Part shown: in pieces, positions 10,417-64,000 of the stretch
How the letters are laid out: each line of letters begins with the position of its first letter
Numbering within the stretch: position 1 is the stretch's first letter
From: an uncultured Candidatus Saccharibacteria bacterium
GTDB lineage: Bacteria > Patescibacteriota > Minisyncoccia > Phycocordibacterales > UBA9973
Assembly (NCBI GenBank): GCA_964348725.1
Contig: CAYGDG010000004.1
Location: 2,133-66,132, forward strand
Direction of reading: 5' to 3'
DNA length: 64,000 bases
Program-made: the position numbers and the translations under genes
The notes under the pieces: generated by a model
What the model saw: the letters and a program-made list of their open reading frames with translations, nothing else
The model's database searches: none
Told to the model about the DNA's origin: nothing

Positions 10417-10827
10417 ATGCAAATCACAATAAATTTTTGGGCAGTGTTGATCGCCGCTATCGTGAATATCGTCGTTGGTTCGCTGTGGTACGGTCCGCTC
10501 TTTGGCAAGATGTGGAAAGGGCTGATGGGCTTTACCGATGAATCAATGAAATCAATGAAGCTCTCCGCCGCGCACGCGATGGTCGGCGGCCTTATCACCG
10601 CGCTCGTCATGGCGTATGTTCTCAATCACTTCGCCGTGCTCACCGGCGTAGTCGGCTTGGACGGCGCGTGGCAGCTGGCATTCTGGATCTGGCTCGGCTT
10701 TATGATGACCGTCTCCGCCGGTTCGTTCCTGTGGGAAGGCAAGCCGCTGAAATTGTTTCTCTTGAATGCCGGTCAGCAGCTCGTGTCCATTTTCCTGATG
10801 GCTGTGGTGCTGGTGCTTTGGAAGTAA
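10417..10827 (+). CDS. DUF1761-family membrane protein
   Basis: GSLWYGPLFGKMW motif. Four TM helices. Confidence 0.55.
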   Translation: MQITINFWAVLIAAIVNIVVGSLWYGPLFGKMWKGLMGFTDESMKSMKLSAAHAMVGGLITALVMAYVLNHFAVLTGVVGLDGAWQLAFWIWLGFMMTVSAGSFLWEGKPLKLFLLNAGQQLVSIFLMAVVLVLWK

Positions 10828-10837
10828 TTTCTGCATT

Positions 10838-10873
10838 CACCCTCTCCTTAATAAGGAGAGGGCAGGGTGAGGT
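10838..10873 (+). repeat. palindromic element copy A (CACCCTCTCCTTAATAAGGAGAGGGCAGGGTGAGGTG), intergenic, 10 nt upstream of the msrB ATG
   Basis: A 10-bp perfect inverted repeat (CCCTCTCCTT / AAGGAGAGGG) with a 3-nt loop, followed by CAGGGTGAGGT. Near-identical to copy B at 61264..61298. Confidence 0.8.
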
Positions 10874-10882
10874 GAATTTCAC

Positions 10883-11275
10883 ATGTCAGAAATAAATAAA
10901 AGCGAAGAAGAATGGAAGCGCGAGCTCTCGCCGGAGGAATATAAAATCCTGCGCGAGAAGGGAACGGAAGCGCCGTTTACCGGGGAATACGATAAATTCT
11001 TTGAGAACGGGATGTATCGCTGTGCCGCCTGCGGCGCGGAGCTCTTTGATTCGTCTCGCAAGTACGATTCCGGCTGCGGCTGGCCCGCCTTTGATGAAGC
11101 CCTGCTCGGTGCCGTAAAATTCACCGAGGACAACACCCTCGGTATGCGCCGCATAGAAGCCACCTGCACAAACTGCGGCGGCCACCTCGGCCATGTATTC
11201 CCGGACGGCCCGAAAAATACCACCGGGCAAAGATTTTGCATAAATTCCCGTTCGCTGAAATTCAAAAATAAATGA
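10883..11275 (+). CDS. msrB: peptide-methionine (R)-S-oxide reductase MsrB
   Basis: [22 protein letters not shown] ... [21 protein letters not shown]: SelR/MsrB catalytic motifs and a zinc CxxC pair. Confidence 0.9.
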
Positions 11276-17133: not shown

Positions 17134-17139
17134 TTATTT

Positions 17140-17171
17140 GTAACATTTTCTGCGATAGCAGAGATTGTTAC
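17140..17171 (+). promoter_or_regulatory. 32-nt palindrome copy 1 (GTAACATTTTCTGCGATAGCAGAGATTGTTAC): putative operator and/or terminator
   Basis: Outer inverted repeat GTAACA/TGTTAC plus inner CTGCGATAGCAG. Identical to copy 2. Followed by a T-run. Confidence 0.5.
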
Positions 17172-17296
17172 ATTTAGATATTTTTTATTACTTTTTTATC
17201 AAATATTTAAGAAGGTTTTTTATAATCCCTTCAAATCAGTTATGAGGTAGCCGAAAATCACAAAAAGAGTAGGCATACAAATTTAATATTTTAGCT

Positions 17297-17980
17297 ATGA
17301 AAAAAGTTTTGTTCTTTGTAATTATTTTGGCTATTGCTCCGCCTCTGTCTGCGCAAGTGCACATAGAGGCTCTGGATTTTCCGACAGCTATGACAGTGCC
17401 CGGAGAGAATCAGATGTTTGCTCGGTATCAGATCGCGTCCGATTCAAATTCGGCATATCTGTATATGGATACCTGCAATATGCTTTTCTACGATTTCGGG
17501 AATTTCTCGGGGATGTCCCTGCGGAATGTCAGGCTGTTCGTAGACGGCGAGGAAAGATTGATGCAGATGACGATGCCCGGTGATTTCTGGCAATTTTATC
17601 CGAGCATATTGCTCGGTTTTCCGTATGGCTTTGCGGACACGGCGCAGATTCATTTTCTGGCTGATCTGCCGGACACGCTCGGTGATGACTTCATCCCCTC
17701 CGTAGGCGATTCGCTGTATGCGAGTATCCATTGCAGCTGTCATTATGTTACAGGCACCGGCTCTTTTGCCACCAATGAAGCCATCAGCCAGACTGTCTTC
17801 GTGACGTCTTCCTCCGTCGGAATTGCGCAACCTTCGCCGCAAAATTTCTCCGAGCGCCAAAATGCTCGCTTCTTTGATATCTTAGGCAGAGAAATCAGCC
17901 GAAGCAATCTGGAAAATCTCCCGCCCGGCGTGTACATCTGGCGGAGTGACCGCTTGGCAGGGAAAATCCTCGTGCGGTAA
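17297..17980 (+). CDS. secreted protein with a T9SS (Por)-type C-terminal sorting-domain-like tail
   Basis: Signal peptide MKKVLFFVIILAIAPPLSAQ. The C-terminus FFDILGREISRSNLENLPPGVYIWRSDRLAGKILVR resembles the Por_Secre_tail consensus (..D..GR.V......LP.GVYI......GK..K.LV). Confidence 0.5.
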   Translation: MKKVLFFVIILAIAPPLSAQVHIEALDFPTAMTVPGENQMFARYQIASDSNSAYLYMDTCNMLFYDFGNFSGMSLRNVRLFVDGEERLMQMTMPGDFWQFYPSILLGFPYGFADTAQIHFLADLPDTLGDDFIPSVGDSLYASIHCSCHYVTGTGSFATNEAISQTVFVTSSSVGIAQPSPQNFSERQNARFFDILGREISRSNLENLPPGVYIWRSDRLAGKILVR

Positions 17981-18034
17981 AAATTACTCGCGAGAAAAGC
18001 CATCGGGAACGGTGGCTTTCTTTTTACCAAGAAT

Positions 18035-18066
18035 GTAACATTTTCTGCGATAGCAGAGATTGTTAC
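18035..18066 (+). promoter_or_regulatory. 32-nt palindrome copy 2, immediately upstream of a TATAAT and the PaaX-like gene
   Basis: Identical to copy 1. Followed by ATCTAATCACACCTATAATAATATG, so it overlaps the likely promoter of 18089..18571. Confidence 0.5.
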
Positions 18067-18088
18067 ATCTAATCACACCTATAATAAT

Positions 18089-18571
18089 ATGAGCATAGTT
18101 AACGAAATTTTGCAGCAGTTAAATAAACAGGCATTTAATTACAAAGGCGCGCGCGTCAGTTTCTTTGGTATTCCAGAATTTAAAAAATATCGCACGGGCT
18201 CAGTCCGGGCGACTTTCTCTCGCTTGCTTGCCGATGGGCTCGTAGAAGATTGCGGTGACTTGCGCATCACAGTGAAAGGAAAAGAATATATAAAAAGAAA
18301 AATTGATTCACTGAAGCAGTTTGATTTCCGATTTGCCAAAGACGCGCCGAAGAATCTGATGGTAATGTTTGATGTGCCTGAGACGAAGAAGGCGGAGAGG
18401 GAATGGCTGCGCTGGCAGCTAAAAAAATTCAGTTACTTGATGATTCAAAAGAGTGTGTGGGTCGGCCCGTCGCCCTTGCCAAAGGAATTTATGGAGTATG
18501 TGGAAGAAATCGGTCTGAAAGACAGCCTAAAGACCTTTAAACTGGCGAAAGGGTATGACTTTAAAAAATAG
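18089..18571 (+). CDS. PaaX-like small transcriptional regulator (N-terminal winged HTH plus Cas2-like ferredoxin-fold domain)
   Basis: The N-terminus GSVRATFSRLLADGLVEDCGDLRITVKGKEYIKRK is wHTH-like. The middle NLMVMFDVPETKKAEREWLRWQLKKFSYLMIQKSVWVGPSP matches the PaaX/Cas2 pattern (PaaX: KWLLLLSEGLDKSTLADVKKQLIWQGFGALAPSLMASPS; Cas2: LVVV...R.RL...L...G..VQ.SV). Confidence 0.4.
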   Translation: MSIVNEILQQLNKQAFNYKGARVSFFGIPEFKKYRTGSVRATFSRLLADGLVEDCGDLRITVKGKEYIKRKIDSLKQFDFRFAKDAPKNLMVMFDVPETKKAEREWLRWQLKKFSYLMIQKSVWVGPSPLPKEFMEYVEEIGLKDSLKTFKLAKGYDFKK

Positions 18572-18578
18572 AAAATAA

Positions 18579-18610
18579 GTTACATTTCCTGCTATCGCAG
18601 AGTTTGTAAC
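18579..18610 (+). promoter_or_regulatory. 32-nt palindrome copy 3 (GTTACATTTCCTGCTATCGCAGAGTTTGTAAC), just after the PaaX-like stop codon
   Basis: Same architecture as copies 1 and 2, with the core reverse-complemented. Followed by TTTTAT. Confidence 0.5.
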
Positions 18611-18783
18611 TTTTATAAATATTTCGGCGCGTTGTCCAGCCAGCCCAAAATAAAGCCCAGAGCGAGGAAGATGACAAGCAGAACGGCGAGGATTATGTAG
18701 GTTTTTCGCATATCTTAATTATATAAGATAATAACCAAAATAAAAACAGGAAGCTTGTAATTACAAGCTTCCTGTTCATTTTT

Positions 18784-34116: not shown

Positions 34117-35994
34117 TTATTCCGTTTTTACTTCCTCAAACTTCACTTTCTCCTCCTTTCCCTTGATGACTTTCTCCGGCTGGAAGGCGCGGGAGAGAGG
34201 GACGGTATGCATGGCGGCTGTCATGGAGCCGTCTTTTTTTATTTTTATTTCCAGGAGCGCGCCGCGCATGGTATTTACGGAAAAGTATTGATCAAAGATA
34301 AAATTACCGAGGCTGTATGCGATGTAGCCATTTTTATATATTTCCGTATCCTGCACCACGTGCGGATGCGCGCCGATGACGAGCTTGGCGCCCGCATCTA
34401 CTGCGCGGTGGGCGAGCGTTTCTTGCCGTTCATTGTGTTTCGTCTGATATTCATCGCCGAAGTGAAATGATACGACGAGGTGATCTACTTCCGCGGCGGC
34501 ATTTTTTATTATTTCATCAAAATTCGGATCGCTGGCGAGGAGGAGCCCGGCTTCAGTTTCTGTCGCTTTCATCCAGTCGGGACCCACATCAGAGAAAGCG
34601 ATATAGCCTATCTTGATACCATACTTTTCTATGATTGCCGGCTTTTTCGCTTCTTCGTAATTCATGCCGCCGCCGGCTGTGAGTATTTCATTTTCTTTCA
34701 GGCGAGCGAGGGTATCGGTGAAGGCATTTCTACCCCAGTCGCCGACATGATTATTTGCAAGCGACAGTACGGAAAAGCCCGCGCCTTTGAGAGCGGGAGG
34801 CACGGTAGGGTCCATACGGAAAGAATACAAGTTACGTTTGTCAGCGCCTTGATCCGATGCGGGACCTTCCAGATTCGCAAATGCGATGTCCGCTTTTTGC
34901 AATATCCCCAGATTTTCAAAAAGAGCGGTATAATCACCGCCAAAATTTTTCATGACAGAATTTTTGACACCCCGATCCAGCATGATGTCGCCGCCGAAGA
35001 CGAGCGTGAGGAAGTCCGGATCTTTTATTTCCGGCACGCCTTCTTTTTCTTTCACCCAGGCAGTGTCCGCGTCCGCTTCGCCGCCGTAGTATACATTTTT
35101 TTTCAGATATTTCACGAGGCTCATGACGTCCGCATATCTATCAGGGCTCCGCAGGAGGGCGATGGCGACAGTGCGGTTGCCCGTTTCGGAAAGCGGTAGT
35201 ATAAAGACGGATAGTACGGTTTGACGCGCAGGATCAGTGTAGCCGCTCTTGCCGCCCTGATATCCTTCTTCACGCAGGAATTGATTGTTTGATGACCAGA
35301 TATGGCGGTCGGTCTTATATGTTCGTTTAGAACTTATGGAAAAGAGCTCAGGTTTTTTTGTACTAATGAAACCGGCAAGGCGAAAGAGGTCAAGCGCACT
35401 GCCTTGATTCCCGGCGGAAAGCCCGCTCGGATCGGCAAATGATGCTGACAATGCGAGGCGCTCGGATTCCTGGTTCATTTTTGCGATAAAATTTTCACGT
35501 CCGAAATGTTCGGCAAGTATTTCCGCGGCATCGTTTGATGATTCCAGAAGCAGGGGATACAAGAGGTCGCCAGTCTGTATTTTTTCACCTTTCCGAAAGC
35601 CGCCGTTTTCGCCGTATGTGGCGAGCGCGCGAGGGGATACTATCGCCGTGTCATGTTCGCGCGGTAGCTCCGTAGATACGAGGGCAGTCATGAGCTTGGA
35701 CACGGACGCGAGCGGCATCACTTCTTTTTCATTCTTTTTTAAAATTATTTCTCCGGTATCCAAGTCGCCCACGATGTATGCTTCTGCGGCTACTTTTGGT
35801 TTGGCGCTGCCATCTTTGAGGAAATAAAAGAATTCCGGCTCTTGTGGTACAGGGGTCACGGTGACGGGCGCCGGCTCACCTGTTTTTATTTTCTGATAAT
35901 TCGCACTCGTAATAAAAAAGACGAGCGATACGCCTACACCGATGGAAAAAATGGTCCAGAAAAATGCCTTGATTTTTCCTGTGTGCGTCATCAT
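34117..35994 (-). CDS. fusion protein: N-terminal serine-type D-Ala-D-Ala carboxypeptidase (PBP5/DacA-like) domain plus C-terminal CapA/PgsA-type metallophosphatase domain
   Basis: N-terminal TM segment. SxxK LASVSKLMTALV. SxN SSNDAA. KTG-like KSGYT. The C-terminal half has VFGGDIMLDRGV ... FANLEGP ... LANNHVGDWG ... VVSFHFGDEY ... GAHPHVVQ ... YSLGNFIFDQ (CapA/YwtB-like). Confidence 0.65.
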   Translation of the reverse strand: MMTHTGKIKAFFWTIFSIGVGVSLVFFITSANYQKIKTGEPAPVTVTPVPQEPEFFYFLKDGSAKPKVAAEAYIVGDLDTGEIILKKNEKEVMPLASVSKLMTALVSTELPREHDTAIVSPRALATYGENGGFRKGEKIQTGDLLYPLLLESSNDAAEILAEHFGRENFIAKMNQESERLALSASFADPSGLSAGNQGSALDLFRLAGFISTKKPELFSISSKRTYKTDRHIWSSNNQFLREEGYQGGKSGYTDPARQTVLSVFILPLSETGNRTVAIALLRSPDRYADVMSLVKYLKKNVYYGGEADADTAWVKEKEGVPEIKDPDFLTLVFGGDIMLDRGVKNSVMKNFGGDYTALFENLGILQKADIAFANLEGPASDQGADKRNLYSFRMDPTVPPALKGAGFSVLSLANNHVGDWGRNAFTDTLARLKENEILTAGGGMNYEEAKKPAIIEKYGIKIGYIAFSDVGPDWMKATETEAGLLLASDPNFDEIIKNAAAEVDHLVVSFHFGDEYQTKHNERQETLAHRAVDAGAKLVIGAHPHVVQDTEIYKNGYIAYSLGNFIFDQYFSVNTMRGALLEIKIKKDGSMTAAMHTVPLSRAFQPEKVIKGKEEKVKFEEVKTE

Positions 35995-37952
35995 GCTAGT
36001 TCGTAATCAATTATTTTGCGCTCCAAATCTGCCTTTTTTACTTTTATTTTTACGCTGTCGCCCAGGCGATAGCGCTTTTTCTTTTTCTTGCCGACGAGCT
36101 CCAGTTTTTTCTCGTCAAAGATATAAAAATCGTCCGATATGTCGCGGGCGCGTACCATGCCTTCGCACTTTGTCTCAATTTCTTCCACGTATATGCCCCA
36201 CTCGGTGACGCCGGAGATGATGCCTTTAAATGTCTCCCCAATACGGTGCGACATGTATTCCGTCTGCTTGTATTTGATGGATGCGCGTTCAGCGTCAGAT
36301 GCGCGCTTTTCCTGGTCGGAACTTTTGCGGGACATCATCTCATACTCGCTCAATTTTTCTTTCGGCACTTTCTTGCCGGCAAGGTATTCCATAAGCAGGC
36401 GGTGCACCATCACGTCCGGATAGCGGCGGATAGGGGAAGTAAAGTGCGTGTAGTGCTCAAAAGCGAGGCCGTAGTGCCCGATATTTTTTGTGGAGTATAT
36501 CGCTTTTGCCATAGAGCGGATGACCGCGCGATGCACGGCGTCCTTTTCGGGCTTGCCGGCGAGCGAGGCGAGGAGTTTATTTATTTCAAATGGGGGAATG
36601 ACGCCGTTCAGTAATTTTACTTTGTATCCGAGGCCGTTTAGGAAGAGCGCAAGGTCGTGCATTTTTTCTTTTTCCGGCGCGTCATGAATGCGGTACACGA
36701 AGACGCCTTCGCCTTTCTTCATTCCTTTGCCAATGCGTTCGGCTACTTTACGATTCGCGAGGAGCATGAGCTCTTCTATCAATTTATTTGAATCTCCGCG
36801 CACTTTTTTTATGACTTTGAGCGGCACGCCTTTTTCATCCAGCACGAATTTTACTTCTTCCTGGTCCAAAGACACTGCGCCTTTCCGGAAGCGCTCAGCG
36901 GTGAGCTTTTTGGCGATGCCGTTTATGATGGCGAGTTCCGCGTGTAATTCACCATTCTTATCCGTGATAGATTTCTCCGCGTCTTCATAGCTGAAACGCT
37001 TTGCGGAGTGGATGACGGTGCGGCCGAACCATTCATCCAGTACCTGACCTTCTGTGTTCATGTGGAATACGGCGCTCATGGTCAGGCGGTCCTGGCCGGG
37101 CACGAGGGAGCAGAGATCATTTGAAAGTACTTCGGGGAGCATGGGTATCGTCCTGTCTACCAAATATACAGAAGTCGCCCGCTCGCGCGCTTCCTGATCC
37201 AGCTCGCTGCCGGGACGCACGTAATACGATACGTCTGCGATGTGGATGCCGATTTCGTACACCTCACCCCCTGACCCCCTCTCCTTAGTAAGGAGAGGGG
37301 GAAGAATGCGGAAAGAAATCGCGTCATCAAAATCTTTCGCATCTGCCGGGTCAATAGTGAAGGTGAGTATGTTTCTGAAATCGCGGCGGCCTTCGTAATC
37401 TTTTTCAGAAATGCCGAGCCGGCTGATGGCCTGCGCTTCATCTTCCGTACCTCTTGGCAGATCTGGCGCAAAGCCGCGCTCAATGGCGATGGCATTCATC
37501 TCGGCGGAATTTTCGCCCGGCTTGCCGAGCACGCGCATGACTTTTCCTTCAGGCGCTTTGCGCGCATCTTTCCACGACGCTATCTCTACGTACGCTTTTT
37601 CGCCGGCTTTGGCGCCGCCCAGGTTCGCCGGGGGGATCAAGATGTCCGTATACATCTTTGTATCATCTGGCTTCAAAAAAAACACGCCGTTCTCTTCTTC
37701 AATCACGCCGGAAAAACCACGCTTGGCGCGGGATATGATTTCCACCACTTCGCCCGTCTGCCGCACACCTTTCTTTTGCGGGAATAAGGCCACGAGCACG
37801 GTATCGCCGTGCAGGCCGGTGTGCAGATGCAGGGATTCTATTTCCACATCTTCTTCATCTTTCTTTTTTTTCGGTTCCAATGTGCGCAGGTAGCCTACGC
37901 CTTTACCGGAAACAGACAGTATGCCTTCAAGGCGGTTAGATTGTGTATCCAT
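35991..37952 (-). CDS. rnr: ribonuclease R (RNB-family 3'-5' exoribonuclease) carrying an in-frame palindromic-element insertion
   Basis: Cold-shock-like N-terminal domains. RNB motifs FTIDPADAKDFDDAISF and HFTSPIRRYPDVMVHRLL. C-terminal S1 domain and a K-rich tail. Confidence 0.85.
   Translation of the reverse strand: MDTQSNRLEGILSVSGKGVGYLRTLEPKKKKDEEDVEIESLHLHTGLHGDTVLVALFPQKKGVRQTGEVVEIISRAKRGFSGVIEEENGVFFLKPDDTKMYTDILIPPANLGGAKAGEKAYVEIASWKDARKAPEGKVMRVLGKPGENSAEMNAIAIERGFAPDLPRGTEDEAQAISRLGISEKDYEGRRDFRNILTFTIDPADAKDFDDAISFRILPPLLTKERGSGGEVYEIGIHIADVSYYVRPGSELDQEARERATSVYLVDRTIPMLPEVLSNDLCSLVPGQDRLTMSAVFHMNTEGQVLDEWFGRTVIHSAKRFSYEDAEKSITDKNGELHAELAIINGIAKKLTAERFRKGAVSLDQEEVKFVLDEKGVPLKVIKKVRGDSNKLIEELMLLANRKVAERIGKGMKKGEGVFVYRIHDAPEKEKMHDLALFLNGLGYKVKLLNGVIPPFEINKLLASLAGKPEKDAVHRAVIRSMAKAIYSTKNIGHYGLAFEHYTHFTSPIRRYPDVMVHRLLMEYLAGKKVPKEKLSEYEMMSRKSSDQEKRASDAERASIKYKQTEYMSHRIGETFKGIISGVTEWGIYVEEIETKCEGMVRARDISDDFYIFDEKKLELVGKKKKKRYRLGDSVKIKVKKADLERKIIDYELA
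37261..37300 (-). repeat. palindromic element copy C, in-frame inside rnr (encodes PPLLTKERGSGGEV)
   Basis: The sense strand reads CCCCCTCTCCTTACTAAGGAGAGGGGGTCAGGGGGTGAGG. Same family as copies A and B, with substitutions that remove in-frame stop codons. Confidence 0.7.
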
Positions 37953-39999: not shown

Positions 40000-40374
40000 A
40001 TGAAAACTCTCATCTCCGTATGCGCAATGCTTCTGATTAGCTTCGGGTTATATGCCCAAGCATATCATCTGGAAACAGATGTATTTGATCCGTATCTTTC
40101 TTCTTCAGATACATTATGCGCTACACTTCGTTTTGATGACTGTGGCCGTCTGTCTTTAAAATTTTTAAGCACAACAGATGCGATGCGGATAGAAATTATA
40201 GATTATGAGCCGGATGATGATATATCAAGCTGGAAAGTGATGGATCTTTGCCGCTACAGGCTCACTTCGCGGTGGTATTGTGATACATCTTGGCACAATC
40301 CACTTGATTCGGCACAGTTCTCCTATCTCTTAGGAGAAACAGTGGCACGGCTTCGATATGAACACAAGAAGTGA
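40000..40374 (+). CDS. secreted hypothetical protein
   Basis: Signal peptide MKTLISVCAMLLISFGLYAQA. 124 aa. Confidence 0.4.
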   Translation: MKTLISVCAMLLISFGLYAQAYHLETDVFDPYLSSSDTLCATLRFDDCGRLSLKFLSTTDAMRIEIIDYEPDDDISSWKVMDLCRYRLTSRWYCDTSWHNPLDSAQFSYLLGETVARLRYEHKK

Positions 40375-51487: not shown

Positions 51488-51494
51488 CAGGCTT

Positions 51495-51590
51495 CCCCTC
51501 CTTGATTAAGGAGGGGATTGAGGGGTGGTAATTCAAAAAATCACCACCTCGGCCTTCGGCCACTCCTCCTCAATAAGGAGGAGAAATATG
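51495..51590 (+). repeat. cluster of three GC-rich hairpins after rpoD, two of them SD/anti-SD-like palindromes related to the repeat family
   Basis: CCCCTCCTTgatTAAGGAGGGG followed by ATTGAGGGGTGG. GGCCttcgGCC. CTCCTCCTcaatAAGGAGGAG followed 7 nt later by an ATG that opens a 13-codon ORF. Confidence 0.6.
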
Positions 51591-51765
51591 TGGTTTGAGC
51601 CTTATTTTGTAAGGCTATTTACCTGTTGACTTTTATACCCATATATGCTATACTTATCAGGTAAAGTAGTTTTTTAACAAATATTGATTTTGGGAATTTA
51701 GTGGCTGCCAGAGGAGCTTTTTGGCTCTTGCGGTGGCTACTAAACTCTATAAACAAAATCAAATT

Positions 51766-51930
51766 ATGAAAACATTAGATTCCATTCTCTTCTATCTCTT
51801 TATTTTTATGTTCCTAGGTCTTTCAGTTGGATTATTCTTTGGTTCAGAACCGATTACGAATAAGCATCTTGTCTCCCTGATTACCTTGGCAGTTGGTGCA
51901 ATTCTATTCAGAATAGAAAAAGGAAGTTAA
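51766..51930 (+). CDS. small hypothetical two-TM membrane protein
   Basis: 54 aa counted from the internal ATG (MKTLDSILFYLFIFMFLGLSVGLFF ...). Weak support. Confidence 0.3.
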   Translation: MKTLDSILFYLFIFMFLGLSVGLFFGSEPITNKHLVSLITLAVGAILFRIEKGS

Positions 51931-51995
51931 AAATCAAACCACCGCGCAAAAGAAAAACCACTTTTGCCGGTGGTTTTTCTTTTGCCAATTTTAAT

Positions 51996-60498: not shown

Positions 60499-61276
60499 AA
60501 AGAATCGGCAGAAAAAATATCGCACCATTGCGATAGGCGTTTTCATTTTGCTCGTCGCCATATATTTCCGTGCGGAAATTTACAATGGCTTTTCGCGTGT
60601 TCTCGGCGCGGTGGCAAAACCATTTCTCTCGTTCGGCCGAAATGTGGGCGGCGGCATTTCCGGCACTGGCGCGGCTTTTGCTTCCAAAAAATCTTTGCGT
60701 GCGGAAAATGAAAATCTAGAGGCACAGCTCGCCGAAATGCAGGGCAGGATGGGGAACTATGATATTCTGGCCGCCGAAAATGAAAACTTGAAAGAAATAT
60801 TGGCGAGAAAAAAAACTCCCGGCACATTGCTCCTCGCCGCCATCCTCGCACATCCGAACCGCTCTTTATACGATACTGTACTTATAGACGCGGGCGAAGC
60901 TGAAGGGGTGAAAGCAGGCGACAGGGTATTCGCGGAAGGCGATATACCGCTCGGCACAGTGGCGGAAGTCATGCCGCACTCGGCAAAAGTGCTCTTGTAT
61001 TCAAATCCCGGCGAGAAGACCGAAGCCATCCTCGGCGAAGGGCATGTCACCCTCACCGGCCGCGGCAGGGGAAATTTTGAGATGATTCTGCCGCGTGATT
61101 ATGTATTGGAGCCAGGCACTGCCGCGCATCTGCCCGGTATATATCCGTATGTCATTGCCCGCACGGCCACGGTCATTTCCGACCCGCGGGATTCGTTTCA
61201 GAAAGCGTTACTGATCAGCCCGGTGAATATTAATCACCTCAAATTTGTGGAGGTGGAGGTTTCACCCTCTCCTTAA
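60479..61276 (+). CDS. mreC: rod shape-determining protein MreC
   Basis: N-terminal TM segment. Coiled coil ENENLEAQLAEMQ ... ENENLKEIL. Beta-rich C-terminal domain. The last 6 codons and the TAA stop lie inside palindromic element copy B. Overlaps mreB. Confidence 0.8.
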   Translation: MSYLLDKKNRQKKYRTIAIGVFILLVAIYFRAEIYNGFSRVLGAVAKPFLSFGRNVGGGISGTGAAFASKKSLRAENENLEAQLAEMQGRMGNYDILAAENENLKEILARKKTPGTLLLAAILAHPNRSLYDTVLIDAGEAEGVKAGDRVFAEGDIPLGTVAEVMPHSAKVLLYSNPGEKTEAILGEGHVTLTGRGRGNFEMILPRDYVLEPGTAAHLPGIYPYVIARTATVISDPRDSFQKALLISPVNINHLKFVEVEVSPSP

Positions 61277-61298
61277 TAAGGAGAGGGCAGGGTGAGGT
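61264..61298 (+). repeat. palindromic element copy B (CACCCTCTCCTTAATAAGGAGAGGGCAGGGTGAGGT), between mreC and tgt
   Basis: Identical over about 35 nt to copy A. It supplies the mreC stop codon and a GGTGAGGT motif 5 nt upstream of the tgt ATG. Confidence 0.8.
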
Positions 61299-61302
61299 TC
61301 TT

Positions 61303-62568
61303 ATGAAATTTGAAATTATAAAAAAACTAAATAATTTGCTCGGTCGCGCGGGAATTTTAGAAACTCCGCACGGGGTTATCCGCACGCCGGCATTCGTGGC
61401 CGTCGGTACGAAAGCGACGGTGAAATCCCTCACGCCCGAGCACGTCAAAAGCGCCGGCTGCCAAGTGGTGCTCGGCAATACCTATCATTTATATTTACAG
61501 CCCGGCGATGAGATAGTGCGCAAAGCCGGCGGCATCGGGAAATTTATGAATTGGCAAGGACCGACGATGACGGATTCCGGCGGCTTCCAGGTATTTTCGC
61601 TGGGCGCGGCATACGGCAAAGATATTTCTAAAGTAATAAAAATCACCGACCCGTCGCTCCTAATACCAGAGCGTTTTGATGACAGCGATGCTCCGCGCCT
61701 CGCGAAGATCGGCGCAGACGGCGTGTCCTTCAAATCGCACTTGGACGGAAGCATTCACTACATCACGCCGGAAAAATCCATCCAGATCCAGCACAATCTC
61801 GGCGCGGATATTATTTTCGCTTTTGACGAATGCACTTCGCCGGCGGAAGATGTGCGCTATCAGGAAGAAGCATTGGAACGCACGCACCGCTGGGCGGAGC
61901 GATGTTTACGGGAGCACATCAAACTTAATACCACCCCCTTACCCCCTCCTAATTTAGGAGGGGGAAGCTCCGACCTAGGTCGGAGCGGGGGAGGTATCGC
62001 ATTGTTTGGAATTGTGCAAGGCGGCAGGGAAGAAAATTTACGCAAAAAATCCGCCAAGATAATTTCGGAGATGCAAGTGGATGGAAAAGGATTTGATGGC
62101 TTCGGCATCGGCGGCTCTTTCGCGAAGGAAGATATGAGTACTGCCGTAAAATGGGTGAATGAAATTTTGCCGGAAGAAAAGCCGCGGCACTTGCTCGGCA
62201 TCGGCGAGCCGGAAGATTTTTTTATGGGCATAGAAAACGGCGTGGATCTTTTTGACTGCGTCATCCCGACGCGCCTCGGCCGAAACGGCACGATATATAC
62301 GAAAAGAGGGAAGATAGTGATCACGAATGCGCAGTACAGAGAAGATTTTACGCCGATAGAGGATGACTGCCCGTGCACGACCTGCCAAGGCTACACCAAA
62401 GCCTACATCGCGCACCTTTTCCGCGGCAAAGAAATGCTCGCCGGCACGCTCGCCTCCACGCATAATATGTATTTCATCGTCTCCCTCGTAGACAAAATCC
62501 GGCAATCTATTTTGGATGGAAATTTTTATGAATTTAAGGAAAGCTTTATGAGGGAATATATAAAATAA
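61303..62568 (+). CDS. tgt: queuine tRNA-ribosyltransferase carrying an in-frame palindromic insertion
   Basis: TPAFVAVGTKA, QGPTMTDSGGFQVFSLG, LGIGEPED ... DLFDCVIPTR, and the zinc site CPCTTCQGYTKAYIAHL. Confidence 0.9.
   Translation: MKFEIIKKLNNLLGRAGILETPHGVIRTPAFVAVGTKATVKSLTPEHVKSAGCQVVLGNTYHLYLQPGDEIVRKAGGIGKFMNWQGPTMTDSGGFQVFSLGAAYGKDISKVIKITDPSLLIPERFDDSDAPRLAKIGADGVSFKSHLDGSIHYITPEKSIQIQHNLGADIIFAFDECTSPAEDVRYQEEALERTHRWAERCLREHIKLNTTPLPPPNLGGGSSDLGRSGGGIALFGIVQGGREENLRKKSAKIISEMQVDGKGFDGFGIGGSFAKEDMSTAVKWVNEILPEEKPRHLLGIGEPEDFFMGIENGVDLFDCVIPTRLGRNGTIYTKRGKIVITNAQYREDFTPIEDDCPCTTCQGYTKAYIAHLFRGKEMLAGTLASTHNMYFIVSLVDKIRQSILDGNFYEFKESFMREYIK
61931..61993 (+). repeat. composite palindromic element inserted in-frame in tgt (encodes TTPLPPPNLGGGSSDLGRSGGGI)
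   Basis: CCCCCTCCTaatttAGGAGGGGG followed by CTCCGACCTAGGTCGGAG. About 20 extra residues relative to the canonical Tgt loop between RWA..R and ALFGI(I/V)QGG. Confidence 0.65.
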
Positions 62569-63081: not shown

Positions 63082-64000
63082 ATGGGGTTTAAACTCAAAA
63101 CTGAATTTCAGCCTGCGGGCGACCAGCCGAAGGCTATAGAGGGGCTGGTGAGCGGGCTCAAAAAGGGTATGCGGAAGCAGACATTGCTGGGTGTGACGGG
63201 TTCGGGCAAGACTTTTACGATGGCGAATGTCATACAGCAGATGCAAAAGCCGACGCTGGTGATAGCGCATAACAAGACCCTGGCCGCCCAGCTGGCGCAG
63301 GAGTTCAAGGAATTTTTTCCGGAAAATGCCGTGCATTATTTTGTTTCTTATTACGATTATTACCAGCCGGAAGCGTACTTGCCGACGACGGACACATACA
63401 TAGAAAAAGACGCGCAAATAAATAAAGAGATTGATCGGCTTCGTCATGCGAGTACGCAGGCACTTTTGTCCAGAAAAGATGTGATAATAGTTGCCTCAGT
63501 GTCCTGCATTTACGGCTTGGGAAGTCCGGAAGAATATAAGGAAGAAAATATGTCCCTCGCCGTGGGCGATGCCGCCGGGCGCTCGGAGATAATGAAGCGC
63601 CTTATCGGTATGCATTTCTCGCGCACGAATGCGGACCTGACGCCGGGAACTTTCCGCGCGATGGGGCAAAAGGTAGAACTGATGCCGATTTCGGAGACTT
63701 TTACATATAGTATTGAATTTTCCCCCTCTCCTTTACAAGGAGAGGGCGGGGGTGAGGTTCTTCGCATTTTAAAAATAGACGCCGTGTCATCCAAAGTCCT
63801 CGGTGAAGAGCAGAATATTTTTATTTTTCCGGCGAAGCACTTCATCACGAACAAAGCGAAGCTTCAGCAGGCGATAAAAAATATCAAAGAAGAACTGAAA
63901 GCCCAGCTGAAGAAATTTGATAAGGAAGGAAAAATTTTGGAAGCCGAGCGGCTGAAGCGCCGCACGAATTATGATCTGGCGATGCTGCGCGAAGTGGGCT
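63082..64000 (+). CDS. uvrB: excinuclease ABC subunit B (5' part; continues beyond window)
   Basis: MGFKLKTEFQPAGDQPKAIEGLVSGL ... QTLLGVTGSGKTFTMANVI ... YFVSYYDYYQPEAY ... ASVSCIYGLGSPEEY. Confidence 0.9.
   Translation, partial: MGFKLKTEFQPAGDQPKAIEGLVSGLKKGMRKQTLLGVTGSGKTFTMANVIQQMQKPTLVIAHNKTLAAQLAQEFKEFFPENAVHYFVSYYDYYQPEAYLPTTDTYIEKDAQINKEIDRLRHASTQALLSRKDVIIVASVSCIYGLGSPEEYKEENMSLAVGDAAGRSEIMKRLIGMHFSRTNADLTPGTFRAMGQKVELMPISETFTYSIEFSPSPLQGEGGGEVLRILKIDAVSSKVLGEEQNIFIFPAKHFITNKAKLQQAIKNIKEELKAQLKKFDKEGKILEAERLKRRTNYDLAMLREVG
63722..63758 (+). repeat. palindromic element copy D in-frame inside uvrB (encodes SPSPLQGEGGGEV)
   Basis: CCCCCTCTCCTTTACAAGGAGAGGGCGGGGGTGAGGT. Same family. 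The stop-creating positions are altered (TTTACAA loop, GGCGGGGG). Confidence 0.7.

What the first reader, a model, noticed from the sequence alone, without database searches (positions are those of the whole stretch)
10838..10873. Mobile-looking palindromic element family whose arms mimic the 16S 3' end (anti-SD) and the SD
A roughly 35-nt unit, CACCCTCTCCTTAATAAGGAGAGGG-CAGGGTGAGGT, occurs at least four times in 64 kb: 10838, 61264, 37261 (minus strand) and 63722. Looser relatives occur at 51495..51590 and 61931..61993. The left arm (CACCCTCTCCTTA) resembles the 16S rRNA 3' tail (CACCUCCUUA). The right arm is its SD-like complement, and the tail GGTGAGGT is a second SD-like motif. Every copy has the same orientation relative to local transcription. 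The two intergenic copies place GGTGAGGT 5 to 9 nt upstream of the msrB and tgt start codons. Each copy could therefore act as a portable RBS, a hairpin-gated translation regulator, or an RNA stability or terminator element. The behaviour is like Rickettsia palindromic elements or REP/MITE-type selfish elements, but with an SD/anti-SD flavour. I am not aware of this being described for CPR-like genomes.
Basis: seen in the sequence. Interest (0 to 1): 0.8.

Follow-up and report, generated by a model that had tools for sequence, protein, structure and literature searches.

The report
Triplex-forming DNA repeat in CPR genome
The repeated 35-base unit is real, but it is a low-GC member of a known, very widespread bacterial repeat family (BoxC/PIT "triplex motifs") whose tail is the third strand of a DNA triple helix rather than a ribosome-binding site; what is unusual here is that it sits in frame inside housekeeping genes of a Patescibacteria (CPR) genome and turns over fast at fixed hotspots.

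Summary
The window holds seven related elements, against about 0.2 expected by chance. The SD/anti-SD reading is not supported. In every copy the "tail" is the mirror image of the purine arm, with G opposite G and A opposite A or T. That is the rule for an antiparallel purine-motif intrastrand DNA triplex, with 8-11 perfect triads per copy. This is the BoxC / PIT / "TM" family (Hoyne & Maher 2000; Holder et al. 2015, PMC4666352). Copy A differs from the E. coli type essentially by one isomorphic triad swap, C-G·G to T-A·T.

Positions the search pattern did not force covary as the triplex predicts. Family-wide there is no orientation bias relative to transcription and no target-site duplication. 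This genome barely uses SD sequences.

New here:
- The host is a Paceibacteria-type CPR bacterium.
- Three of seven copies are in-frame insertions, in RNase R, UvrB and Tgt.
- One copy supplies the mreC stop codon and is absent from an 85%-identical relative.
- The RNase R site is a hotspot needing at least 12 gains or losses among 121 orthologues.
- All 33 arm bases there are frozen while synonymous sites are saturated.

How the element spreads is unknown.

The parts
10838..10873 (+). Copy A, between the DUF1761 gene (stop at 10827) and msrB (ATG at 10883). Y arm 10840-10849 CCCTCTCCTT; loop AAT; R arm 10853-10862 AAGGAGAGGG; loop CA; H (third-strand) arm 10865-10873 GGGTGAGGT.
   Evidence: (9 perfect triads)
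61263..61299 (+). Copy B, identical to A over 38 nt. Its loop 1 supplies the mreC stop codon (TAA 61274-61276). Its H arm ends 3-4 nt before the tgt ATG (61303). It is absent from the 85%-identical relative L121, where mreC and tgt overlap as TAATG.
   Evidence: (10 triads)
37261..37301 (-). Copy C, in frame in RNase R (gene 35991-37952, minus strand), encoding PPLLTKERGSGGEV: CCCCCTCTCCTT act AAGGAGAGGGGG tca GGGGGTGAGGT.
   Evidence: (11 triads)
63722..63759 (+). Copy D, in frame in uvrB (the gene starts about 63094 and runs off the window), encoding SPSPLQGEGGGEV. It is unique to this genome among the 120 closest homologues.
   Evidence: (10 triads)
61930..61995 (.). Copy E, in frame in tgt (TTPLPPPNLGGGSSDLGRSGGG). 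The hairpin is CCCCCTCCTA/TAGGAGGGGG. On the minus strand the third-strand arm GGGGGTGGT follows loop TAA. On the plus strand GGGGGAGGT follows a 22-nt mini-hairpin that serves as loop 2.
   Evidence: (9 triads on each strand)
51494..51530 (+). Copy F, downstream of rpoD: TCCCCTCCTT gatt AAGGAGGGGA ttg AGGGGTGGTA.
   Evidence: (10 triads)
51543..51583 (-). Copy G, inverted partner of F: CTCCTCCT tattg AGGAGGAG, then mini-hairpin tGGCCgaaGGCC, then GAGGTGGT. The F/G tails pair with each other, like the inverted TM pairs described in E. coli.
   Evidence: (8 triads); PMC4666352 section 18

Best explanation
The units are low-GC members of the BoxC / PIT / 'TM' family of class II purine-motif intrastrand-triplex repeats.

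Structure. Each unit has three arms on one strand:
- a pyrimidine arm (Y);
- its Watson-Crick purine complement (R);
- after a 2-3 nt loop or a mini-hairpin, a second purine-rich arm (H).
H is the mirror image of R, with G opposite G and A opposite A or T. As single-stranded DNA, Y and R form a hairpin and H lies antiparallel in its major groove through reverse-Hoogsteen G·G-C, A·A-T and T·A-T triads.

Shown here:
- the three-arm rule holds in all seven copies;
- it covaries across hundreds of copies from many phyla;
- copies are gained and lost between close relatives;
- three copies are in-frame insertions in RNase R, UvrB and Tgt;
- the arms are frozen at the nucleotide level while the loops and host synonymous sites drift.

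Inferred: the constraint acts on DNA, not RNA. The literature reports that purine-motif triplexes exclude RNA, and orientation is independent of transcription. The elements therefore behave as small selfish or structural DNA repeats. They spread or are exchanged by an as-yet unknown single-strand-DNA or recombination route that leaves no target-site duplication. They survive only where harmless: at gene junctions, and in frame in protein loops. The anti-SD/SD look is a by-product of the polypyrimidine/polypurine composition a triplex requires.
For: (1) Window scan. There are 8 motifs with 8-11 perfect triads, which are exactly elements A-G. Random expectation is about 0.17.

(2) Different stems carry matching tails:
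- AAGGAGAGGG with GGGTGAGGT(T);
- AGGAGGGGG with GGGGGAGGT and GGGGGTGGT;
- AAGGAGGGGA with AGGGGTGGTA;
- AGGAGGAG with GAGGTGGT.

(3) Genome scan, 162 copies from Proteobacteria, Cyanobacteria, Chloroflexi, Planctomycetes, Bacteroidetes and others.
- The tail's 5' G-run equals the R arm's 3' G-run, or exceeds it by one, in 151 of 161 copies; 0 of 10000 permutations reach this.
- The ninth triad covaries: C-G goes with G in 103/105, and T-A goes with T in 6/6.
- For asymmetric arms, 84 fit the mirror arrangement only and 5 fit a direct repeat only.
- At the tenth position, T-A goes with A or T in 39/57, against 25/66 for unpaired controls (p = 0.001).

(4) Published sequences. E. coli TMECO is CCCTCTCCCtgtGGGAGAGGGccgGGGTGAGGG. 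Copy A is CCCTCTCCTTaatAAGGAGAGGGcaGGGTGAGGT. The paper reports that the ssDNA forms a triplex in vitro by CD and NMR with Tm 70-82 °C, and cites earlier work that RNA is excluded from purine-motif triplexes and that PIT elements have no promoter or terminator activity (PMC4666352).

(5) Dynamics.
- Copy B is absent from relative L121.
- The UvrB insert is unique among 120 homologues.
- The RNase R insert needs at least 12 state changes on an NJ tree. Pairs that are about 95% identical differ by presence/absence or by subfamily.

(6) Nucleotide-level constraint. Between the window and L242 RNase R, third-position identity is 38% across the gene but 14/14 in the element. Four genomes share all 33 arm bases apart from one change, and differ in the loops.

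(7) No orientation bias relative to transcription, and no TSD.
Against: - Triplex formation was not measured for these sequences. Holder et al. could not detect the triplex in vivo by DMS footprinting in E. coli, so biological use of the fold rests on covariation alone.
- The strict published TMECO consensus is not matched.
- The core GGAGAGG is itself mirror-symmetric. Discrimination between mirror and direct repeat therefore rests on flanking positions.
- At the tenth position, the five C-G pairs were not followed by G.
- The mobilising mechanism is unknown. A Y1/HUH transposase-like gene seen in relatives is absent from the window and not adjacent to elements.
- All single-tailed copies in this window are co-oriented with transcription. 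With n = 5-6 this is not significant, but it is not explained either.
Confidence: 0.75

Rival explanations
1. An RNA-level SD/anti-SD device: the hairpin sequesters an SD-like arm with an anti-SD-like arm, and the GGTGAGGT tail serves as a portable ribosome-binding site or translational gate for the downstream gene.
For: - In copies A and B the tail lies 9 and 4 nt before the msrB and tgt start codons.
- These two leaders have the strongest predicted anti-SD duplexes in the window, -13.3 and -11.8 kcal/mol.
- In RNA folds the tail is left single-stranded.
Against: - About 90% of genes in the window have AT-rich leaders with no SD.
- The tgt orthologue of an 85%-identical relative has no element and no SD; mreC and tgt overlap as TAATG.
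- Five of the seven copies are not in front of a start codon.
- Tail sequences vary as the mirror of their own stem, not towards the SD consensus.
- Family-wide orientation relative to transcription is random, 33 same against 39 opposite.
- PIT elements showed no effect on expression in E. coli (cited in PMC4666352).
Confidence: 0.07
2. An ordinary REP-like hairpin that acts in mRNA (a 3'-end stabiliser, a terminator or an RNase barrier), or a REPIN mobilised by a RAYT. In this model the tail has no structural role.
For: - The hairpins are stable: -17 kcal/mol, z = -3 to -5.
- Copies are enriched between convergent genes over divergent ones, 26 against 10.
- There is no TSD, as for REPs.
- A Y1_Tnp gene is present in two relatives.
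Against: - The tail covaries with the stem, which a plain hairpin model does not predict.
- There is no GTAG or CGTC head.
- Many copies are intragenic.
- No T-run follows the hairpins.
- There is no Y1_Tnp homologue in the window, and only 1 more in 1.8 Mb of element-bearing loci; it is not adjacent to an element.
Confidence: 0.1
3. The G-rich R and H arms form a G-quadruplex. The Y arm and the mirror symmetry are incidental.
For: The R and H arms contain four G-tracts (GG-AGA-GGG-CA-GGG-TGA-GG). Holder et al. note that triplex and parallel G4 CD spectra look alike.
Against: - A G4 needs neither the conserved complementary Y arm nor the position-specific A to A/T correspondence.
- Variants such as AGGAGGAG/GAGGTGGT have only GG runs yet keep 8 perfect triads.
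- The C-G·G to T-A·T covariation is a triplex signature.
Confidence: 0.04
4. The in-frame copies are selected as a peptide module (PPLLxKERGxGGEV), meaning a protein-level function rather than a DNA element.
For: The same peptide recurs at the same RNase R loop in 14 of 121 orthologues.
Against: - The same DNA is read in different frames and on either strand in other genes: SPSPLQGEGGGEV, NLTPSPSPKRRGE, LTPGPSPWQGEG.
- Third codon positions are 14/14 identical, against 38% in the rest of the gene.
- Identical units occur between genes.
Confidence: 0.03

Closest known systems
BoxC / PIT elements / TMECO triplex motifs (Bachellier et al. 1990s; Hoyne, Edwards, Viari & Maher 2000; Hoyne & Maher 2002; Holder et al. 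NAR 2015, PMC4666352)
   Same: - Same Y-loop-R-loop-H order (class II).
- Same core arms: CCCTCTCC / GGAGAGGG / GGGTGAGG.
- Same loop-2 types (YY[R]).
- About 35 nt long, multi-copy and dispersed.
- Inverted pairs occur.
- No TSD, and no consistent relation to neighbouring genes.
- Presence/absence varies between close relatives.
   Different: - The ninth triad is T-A·T instead of C-G·G, with an extra T-A triad, so the strict consensus is not matched.
- Some copies use a mini-hairpin as loop 2 or carry a tail on both strands.
- The host is a Patescibacteria genome; the published set was Proteobacteria plus Cyanobacteria.
- Three of seven copies are in frame inside genes, whereas E. coli K-12 copies are all intergenic.
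Rickettsia palindromic elements (RPE; Ogata et al. 2000, from my own knowledge)
   Same: Palindromic selfish DNA inserted in frame into housekeeping protein genes of a reduced genome. It is tolerated in loops, and copies also occur between genes.
   Different: RPEs are about 100-150 bp, restricted to Rickettsia and unrelated in sequence, with no third-strand arm. The elements here are 35-65 nt, and their family spans many phyla.
REP/BIME and REPIN elements mobilised by RAYT (Y1/HUH) transposases
   Same: Short GC-rich hairpins in many copies, often in inverted pairs, without TSD, with a preference for 3' and convergent intergenic regions.
   Different: No GTAG or CGTC head. A third arm is present. 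Copies occur inside genes. No RAYT was found in the window or next to copies.
H-DNA (homopurine/homopyrimidine mirror repeats)
   Same: Purine mirror symmetry and reverse-Hoogsteen triads.
   Different: H-DNA forms from duplex mirror repeats under supercoiling. Here three consecutive arms on one strand fold on their own, and the Y arm is an inverted repeat of R.

Membership tests
Class II purine-motif intrastrand triplex repeats (BoxC/PIT/TM, broad sense) | Three consecutive arms on one strand in the order pyrimidine arm, purine arm, third-strand arm | tested here: met
   All seven elements
Class II purine-motif intrastrand triplex repeats (BoxC/PIT/TM, broad sense) | The third arm is antiparallel to the purine arm with only G·G-C, A·A-T and T·A-T triads over at least 8 positions | tested here: met
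   8-11 perfect triads per copy; random expectation is about 0.17 motifs per window. Mirror against direct repeat is 84 to 5 in asymmetric copies.
Class II purine-motif intrastrand triplex repeats (BoxC/PIT/TM, broad sense) | The isolated strand forms a triplex in vitro (CD, NMR, UV melting, Mg2+) | not testable with these tools
   Shown for the E. coli sequences only (PMC4666352)
TMECO, strict consensus of Holder et al. | Matches 5'-CCCTCNCCC N3-6 GGGNGAGGG N3 GGGNGAGGG-3' | tested here: not met
   0 matches in the window. Copies differ by the triad swap C-G·G to T-A·T and by loop-2 length.
TMECO, strict consensus of Holder et al. | Located only between genes (as in E. coli K-12) | tested here: not met
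   Copies C, D and E are in frame in RNase R, uvrB and tgt. Copy B overlaps the mreC stop.
REP / REPIN | Conserved GTAG or CGTC tetranucleotide at one end of the hairpin | tested here: not met
   The 5' flanks are TTCA, CTT or TTTT. There is no conserved flank apart from a pyrimidine bias at -2 and -1.
REP / REPIN | A cognate RAYT (Y1 transposase) gene in the genome, typically flanked by the repeats | tested here: inconclusive
   None in the 64-kb window. Y1_Tnp genes occur in two relatives but not next to elements, and only one further hit was found in 1.8 Mb of element-bearing loci. The rest of this genome was not available.
MITE | Terminal inverted repeats plus a target-site duplication | tested here: not met
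   No TSD above expectation for k = 2-5 in 328 copies
Rickettsia palindromic elements | In-frame insertion into protein-coding genes | tested here: met
Rickettsia palindromic elements | RPE sequence families of about 100-150 bp | tested here: not met
   The units are 35-65 nt and have triplex-motif sequence. The comparison with RPE size rests on my own knowledge.
   About 8% of 59 genes have a strong SD-like leader. Only 2 of 7 copies precede a start codon. The relative lacks both the element and an SD before tgt.

The most novel reading that the evidence does not exclude
In Patescibacteria these three-arm repeats are an active mobile or recombining DNA class that depends on the single-stranded triplex fold.

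They are repeatedly inserted or swapped at the same purine-rich codons in loops of essential genes. The net inserts are 24 and 30 nt, shorter than the 36-41-nt motifs. The third-strand arm therefore lies over pre-existing G/E/K codons such as GGTGAAGAAGAA, which suggests triplex- or microhomology-guided targeting.

If so, the frozen arms and the triad covariation would be the first evolutionary proof that intrastrand triplexes form and matter in vivo.
Probability: 0.15. Interest if true: 0.8.

Novelty: new variant of a known kind. Interest (0 to 1): 0.45.

Why it matters
Intrastrand triplex motifs have been known since 2000. Their structure has been proven in vitro, but they have shown no in-vivo footprint and have no accepted function or mode of spread.

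This locus adds three things:
- Triad-level covariation, together with nucleotide-frozen arms inside otherwise saturated genes, argues that the three-stranded fold itself is under selection.
- The repeats invade essential genes in frame at recurrent hotspots, as RPEs do in Rickettsia. This affects protein annotation, since it produces spurious 'PSPLxGEGxGEV' peptides and length variation in Tgt, RNase R, UvrB, HolB, UvrD, the CCA-adding enzyme and TruB. It also provides natural presence/absence pairs for working out how the elements move.

For the original claim the outcome is deflationary: this is not an SD/anti-SD device.

Tried and rejected
- Rfam gave no family at any copy. The gathering-threshold search of the whole window found only a tRNA and a DUF805b motif. 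The E-value search of the F/G region gave only sub-threshold noise.
- The strict TMECO pattern has 0 hits in the window.
- TSD and flank-logo search on 328 copies found no duplication and no inverted flanks. There is only a pyrimidine bias at -2 and -1.
- Y1/HUH transposase as mobiliser: tblastn of the relative's Y1_Tnp gave nothing in the window and one non-adjacent hit in 1.8 Mb of loci. This is not supportive.
- Orientation rule: tested on 72 co-directional contexts and rejected.
- Exact look-ups of the window's own Tgt found nothing, so I could not extend beyond the window into the 93.8-kb source contig.
- DNA for the uninserted near-twin of P0125 (P0197, P0211) was not available. The cleanest before/after comparison at nucleotide level could therefore not be made.
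- Literature searches for CPR in-frame palindromic repeats, and for later work on BoxC triplexes, returned nothing beyond Holder et al. 2015 in the held library.
- The assembly-artefact explanation is rejected. The same element sits at the orthologous RNase R site in four independent assemblies.

Full report
**1. The observation**

The 25-nt core CACCCTCTCCTTAATAAGGAGAGGG matches at 10838, 61263, 37275/37277 and 63722 with at most 3 mismatches. Shuffled sequence gives 0 matches. Copies at 10836-10873 and 61261-61298 are identical over 38 nt.

Reading the sequences and the ORFs places the copies as follows:
- A lies between a DUF1761 gene and msrB.
- B lies at the mreC/tgt junction. Its first loop supplies the mreC stop codon, TAA at 61274-61276.
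- C is in frame in RNase R on the minus strand (…FRIL-PPLLTKERGSGGEV-YEIG…).
- D is in frame in uvrB (…IEF-SPSPLQGEGGGEV-LRI…).
- E is in frame in tgt (…KLNT-TPLPPPNLGGGSSDLGRSGGG-IALFG…).
- F and G form an inverted pair downstream of rpoD.

There are small corrections. The coordinate 61264 should be 61263. The tail-to-ATG spacers are 9 and 4 nt. Copy G is opposite in orientation, and copy E carries a tail on both strands.

**2. What the tail is**

The tails differ between copies. In every copy the tail is the mirror image of that copy's own purine arm, with G opposite G and A opposite A or T:
- AAGGAGAGGG |ca| GGGTGAGGT(T)
- AAGGAGAGGGGG |tca| GGGGGTGAGGT
- AAGGAGGGGA |ttg| AGGGGTGGTA
- AGGAGGGGG |taa| GGGGGTGGT, and |22-nt hairpin| GGGGGAGGT
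- AGGAGGAG |GGCCgaaGGCC| GAGGTGGT

This is the base-triad code of an antiparallel (purine-motif, reverse-Hoogsteen) triple helix: G·G-C, A·A-T, T·A-T.

I wrote an unbiased scanner for the pattern: pyrimidine arm, loop, complementary all-purine arm, loop, third strand. It returned exactly these elements, with 8-11 perfect triads each, plus one marginal 7-triad hit at 40299-40338. Thirty Markov-random windows gave a mean of about 0.17 hits.

**3. It is a known family**

A literature search led to Holder et al., NAR 2015 (PMC4666352). The motif was first listed as BoxC in E. coli. Hoyne, Edwards, Viari and Maher rediscovered it in 2000 as 'potential intrastrand triplex' (PIT) elements. Holder et al. 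then called it TMECO, with the consensus CCCTCNCCC N3-6 GGGNGAGGG N3 GGGNGAGGG.

What the paper reports or cites:
- 3610 copies in 262 proteobacterial genomes, and abundant G/C-rich triplex motifs in cyanobacteria.
- A stable triplex of the isolated DNA strand by CD and NMR, with Tm 70-82 °C.
- No triplex signal in vivo by DMS footprinting.
- No promoter or terminator activity.
- An exclusively intergenic location in E. coli K-12.
- No strand bias.
- Occasional inverted pairs.
- Association with local genomic instability.
- Purine-motif triplexes do not form in RNA.

E. coli copy 1 is CCCTCTCCCtgtGGGAGAGGGccgGGGTGAGGGC. Window copy A is CCCTCTCCTTaatAAGGAGAGGGcaGGGTGAGGT. The arms are the same except that the ninth triad is T-A·T instead of C-G·G. 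The strict consensus is therefore not matched in the window, but the architecture and core sequence are.

**4. How widespread it is, and whether the third strand is under selection**

It returned 120 loci and 162 copies. The hosts included Pseudomonas, Xanthomonas, Enterobacteriaceae, Cyanobacteria, Chloroflexi, Planctomycetes, Bacteroidetes, Acidobacteria, Verrucomicrobia and Omnitrophica.

Positions that the search pattern did not force behave as the triplex predicts:
- The 5' G-run of the tail equals the 3' G-run of the purine arm, or exceeds it by one, in 151 of 161 copies. None of 10000 permutations reaches this.
- When the ninth base pair is C-G the third base is G in 103/105. When it is T-A the third base is T in 6/6.
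- For purine arms that are not mirror-symmetric, 84 tails fit the mirror arrangement only and 5 fit a direct repeat only.
- At the tenth position, T-A pairs are followed by A or T in 39/57, against 25/66 for unpaired controls (p = 0.001). The five C-G cases did not fit, consistent with fraying at the end of the helix or simply small numbers.

I know of no alternative that predicts this three-way covariation. A plain hairpin, a G-quadruplex or an SD sequence does not.

**5. Testing the SD/anti-SD reading**

The window's genes essentially lack SD sequences. Of 59 gene leaders, about 8% have a predicted anti-SD duplex of -8 kcal/mol or better. Two of those five are the leaders created by copies A and B. 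The rest are AT-rich.

The closest relative available is L121, with Tgt 85% identical. It has mreC and tgt overlapping as TAATG, with no element and no SD.

In the family at large, orientation relative to co-directional flanking genes is 33 same against 39 opposite. Validated in-frame copies occur in both orientations.

A local side effect on msrB or tgt translation is possible but unnecessary.

**6. Organism**

The best hits of Tgt and RNase R are Patescibacteria (Paceibacterota, Nomurabacteria, Minisyncoccia). The 100%-identical database entries sit on a 93,830-bp contig. The 'CPR-like' guess is right.

**7. In-frame insertions and their dynamics**

Alignment to solved structures shows each coding copy as an insertion:
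- UvrB against B. caldotenax: VEFF--------GDEIERI.
- Tgt against Z. mobilis: a 14-residue gap.
- RNase R against B. subtilis: a 10-residue gap.

*UvrB.* Among 120 UvrB homologues the insert is unique to this genome. Uninserted relatives read IEF-A-GG-KISRI.

*Tgt.* In Tgt the same loop is a hotspot. Relatives carry anything from no insert to about 60 residues of various repeat-derived peptides. L121 has the same element E but with a different mini-hairpin (TGCCGAAGGC) as loop 2.

*RNase R distribution.*
- 61 of 120 relatives have no insert (…FKEL-GKEE-YEIG…).
- 13 carry PPLLxKERGxGGEV.
- 14 carry a second subfamily, PSLxKEGxGGG.
- 32 carry other inserts.

On an NJ tree built with the site masked, the 14 PPLL-type sequences (the 13 relatives plus the window's own copy) need at least 12 gains or losses. 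P0125 (insert) and P0197 (none) are about 95% identical. P0147 and P0146 are also about 95% identical but carry different subfamilies. That is rapid turnover at one site, whether by repeated insertion, precise loss or short-tract recombination.

*RNase R at the nucleotide level.* Between the window and L242, RNase R is 64% identical overall, with 38% identity at third codon positions. Within the element 39/42 bases and 14/14 third positions are identical. Across four genomes all 33 arm bases are the same apart from one T-to-C change. The two loops and the flanking synonymous sites differ. Either the arms are under very strong DNA-level selection or they are continually renewed from a common source. 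A three-way pairing constraint makes compensated change nearly impossible, which would favour selection.

*Generality.* Nine of ten host ORFs sampled from the metagenome loci are real genes carrying the motif in frame. They are HolB, UvrD, an O-antigen ligase, a TPP enzyme, GGT, a molybdopterin dehydrogenase, the CCA-adding enzyme, TruB and Lgt. About 70% of copies in that sample are nevertheless intergenic.

**8. Clues to mechanism (inference)**

- There is no target-site duplication and no conserved flank in 328 copies. This argues against a DDE-type MITE.
- The net inserts in RNase R (30 nt) and UvrB (24 nt) are shorter than the motifs (41 and 36 nt). The third-strand arm falls on ancestral purine-rich codons: uninserted L245 has TTA GGT GAA GAA GAA TAT, and UvrB relatives have GG-K-I. 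This hints at targeting by, or replacement of, H-arm-like host sequence. It rests on two or three sites only.
- A Y1/HUH transposase-like gene (motif NHFHVLV) lies near the RNase R locus in two relatives. It has no homologue in the window and only one non-adjacent homologue in 1.8 Mb of element-bearing loci. I do not propose it as the mobiliser.
- Because purine-motif triplexes are reported not to form in RNA, and orientation ignores transcription, I place the constraint at the DNA level, in single-stranded DNA during replication, repair or transfer.

**9. Verdict**

The finding is a real repeat family that was misread. It belongs, in the broad sense, to the known BoxC/PIT/TM intrastrand-triplex repeats, as a low-GC variant in a CPR genome.

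I did not find the following in the paper I read:
- the occurrence in CPR;
- the in-frame invasion of essential genes at recurrent hotspots;
- loop-2 mini-hairpins and two-tailed forms;
- the triad covariation and frozen arms, which give evolutionary support for the triplex fold.

The function beyond 'selfish/structural DNA', and the way the elements move, remain unknown.

Noticed in passing
window 17139-17176, 18034-18071, 18578-18615: A second, unrelated palindromic repeat, TGTAACATTTTCTGCGATAGCAGAGATTGTTACA, occurs three times (two copies 97% identical). The copies bracket the genes at 17297-17980 and 18089-18571.
   Followed up: no
window 17241-17275 (+): Rfam DUF805b RNA motif above its gathering score (41.4 bits against 35.6), just upstream of the gene at 17297 and next to the TGTAACA repeat.
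   Followed up: no
window, all gene starts: The genome almost lacks Shine-Dalgarno sequences. Leaders are AT-rich (for example ATAAAAT and TATATA), and only about 8% of 59 genes have an anti-SD duplex of -8 kcal/mol or better.
   Followed up: partly
Tgt loop, window 61925-62000, and homologues P0003-P0120: This loop is a hotspot for many different in-frame inserts in Paceibacteria relatives. Recurrent peptides include SPLEEYPLGGGGKIIHPGASATPQEGN, SFLGSLSAPAGAALPLGPSACETP, SHSVLEGQDQAGSSEDSS and LLSHGSHPNLNVVNESN. They look like translations of other repeat families.
   Followed up: partly
L243 15035-15772; contig of P0197 (4772-5452): A Y1_Tnp (IS200/RAYT-like, HUH motif NHFHVLV) gene sits between the peptidase_S11/PGA_cap gene and smc, near RNase R, in two relatives. 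It is absent from the syntenic region of the window.
   Followed up: partly
P0147 vs P0146 (RNase R relatives): Besides the hotspot swap, these proteins, which are about 95% identical, differ by two more small in-frame inserts (EGGPASGWKEEIA and NLPAGRQG). In-frame repeat indels therefore appear common in these genomes.
   Followed up: no
window 51626-51995: A promoter-like TTGACT-17-TATACT lies at 51626-51655. It is followed by a 54-codon hydrophobic small ORF (51767-51931) and a terminator-like hairpin (about 51938-51975). The list of ORFs of 90 aa or more does not include this ORF.
   Followed up: no
L243 10644-10760; P0175, P0182, P0199, P0218: Some RNase R relatives carry a longer composite at the hotspot (…KEGVGGGNAKNHHPAYGTPPQKGGEV…). 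Here a second module is nested between the purine arm and a distal GGGGGTGAGGT tail, analogous to the mini-hairpin loop 2 of copies E and G.
   Followed up: partly
L122, L158, L163, L194, L196 (metagenome loci): Several loci carry arrays of 3-5 triplex motifs at regular spacing (for example 188 nt in L194). Some lie inside long ORFs that may be spurious or repeat-built proteins.
   Followed up: no
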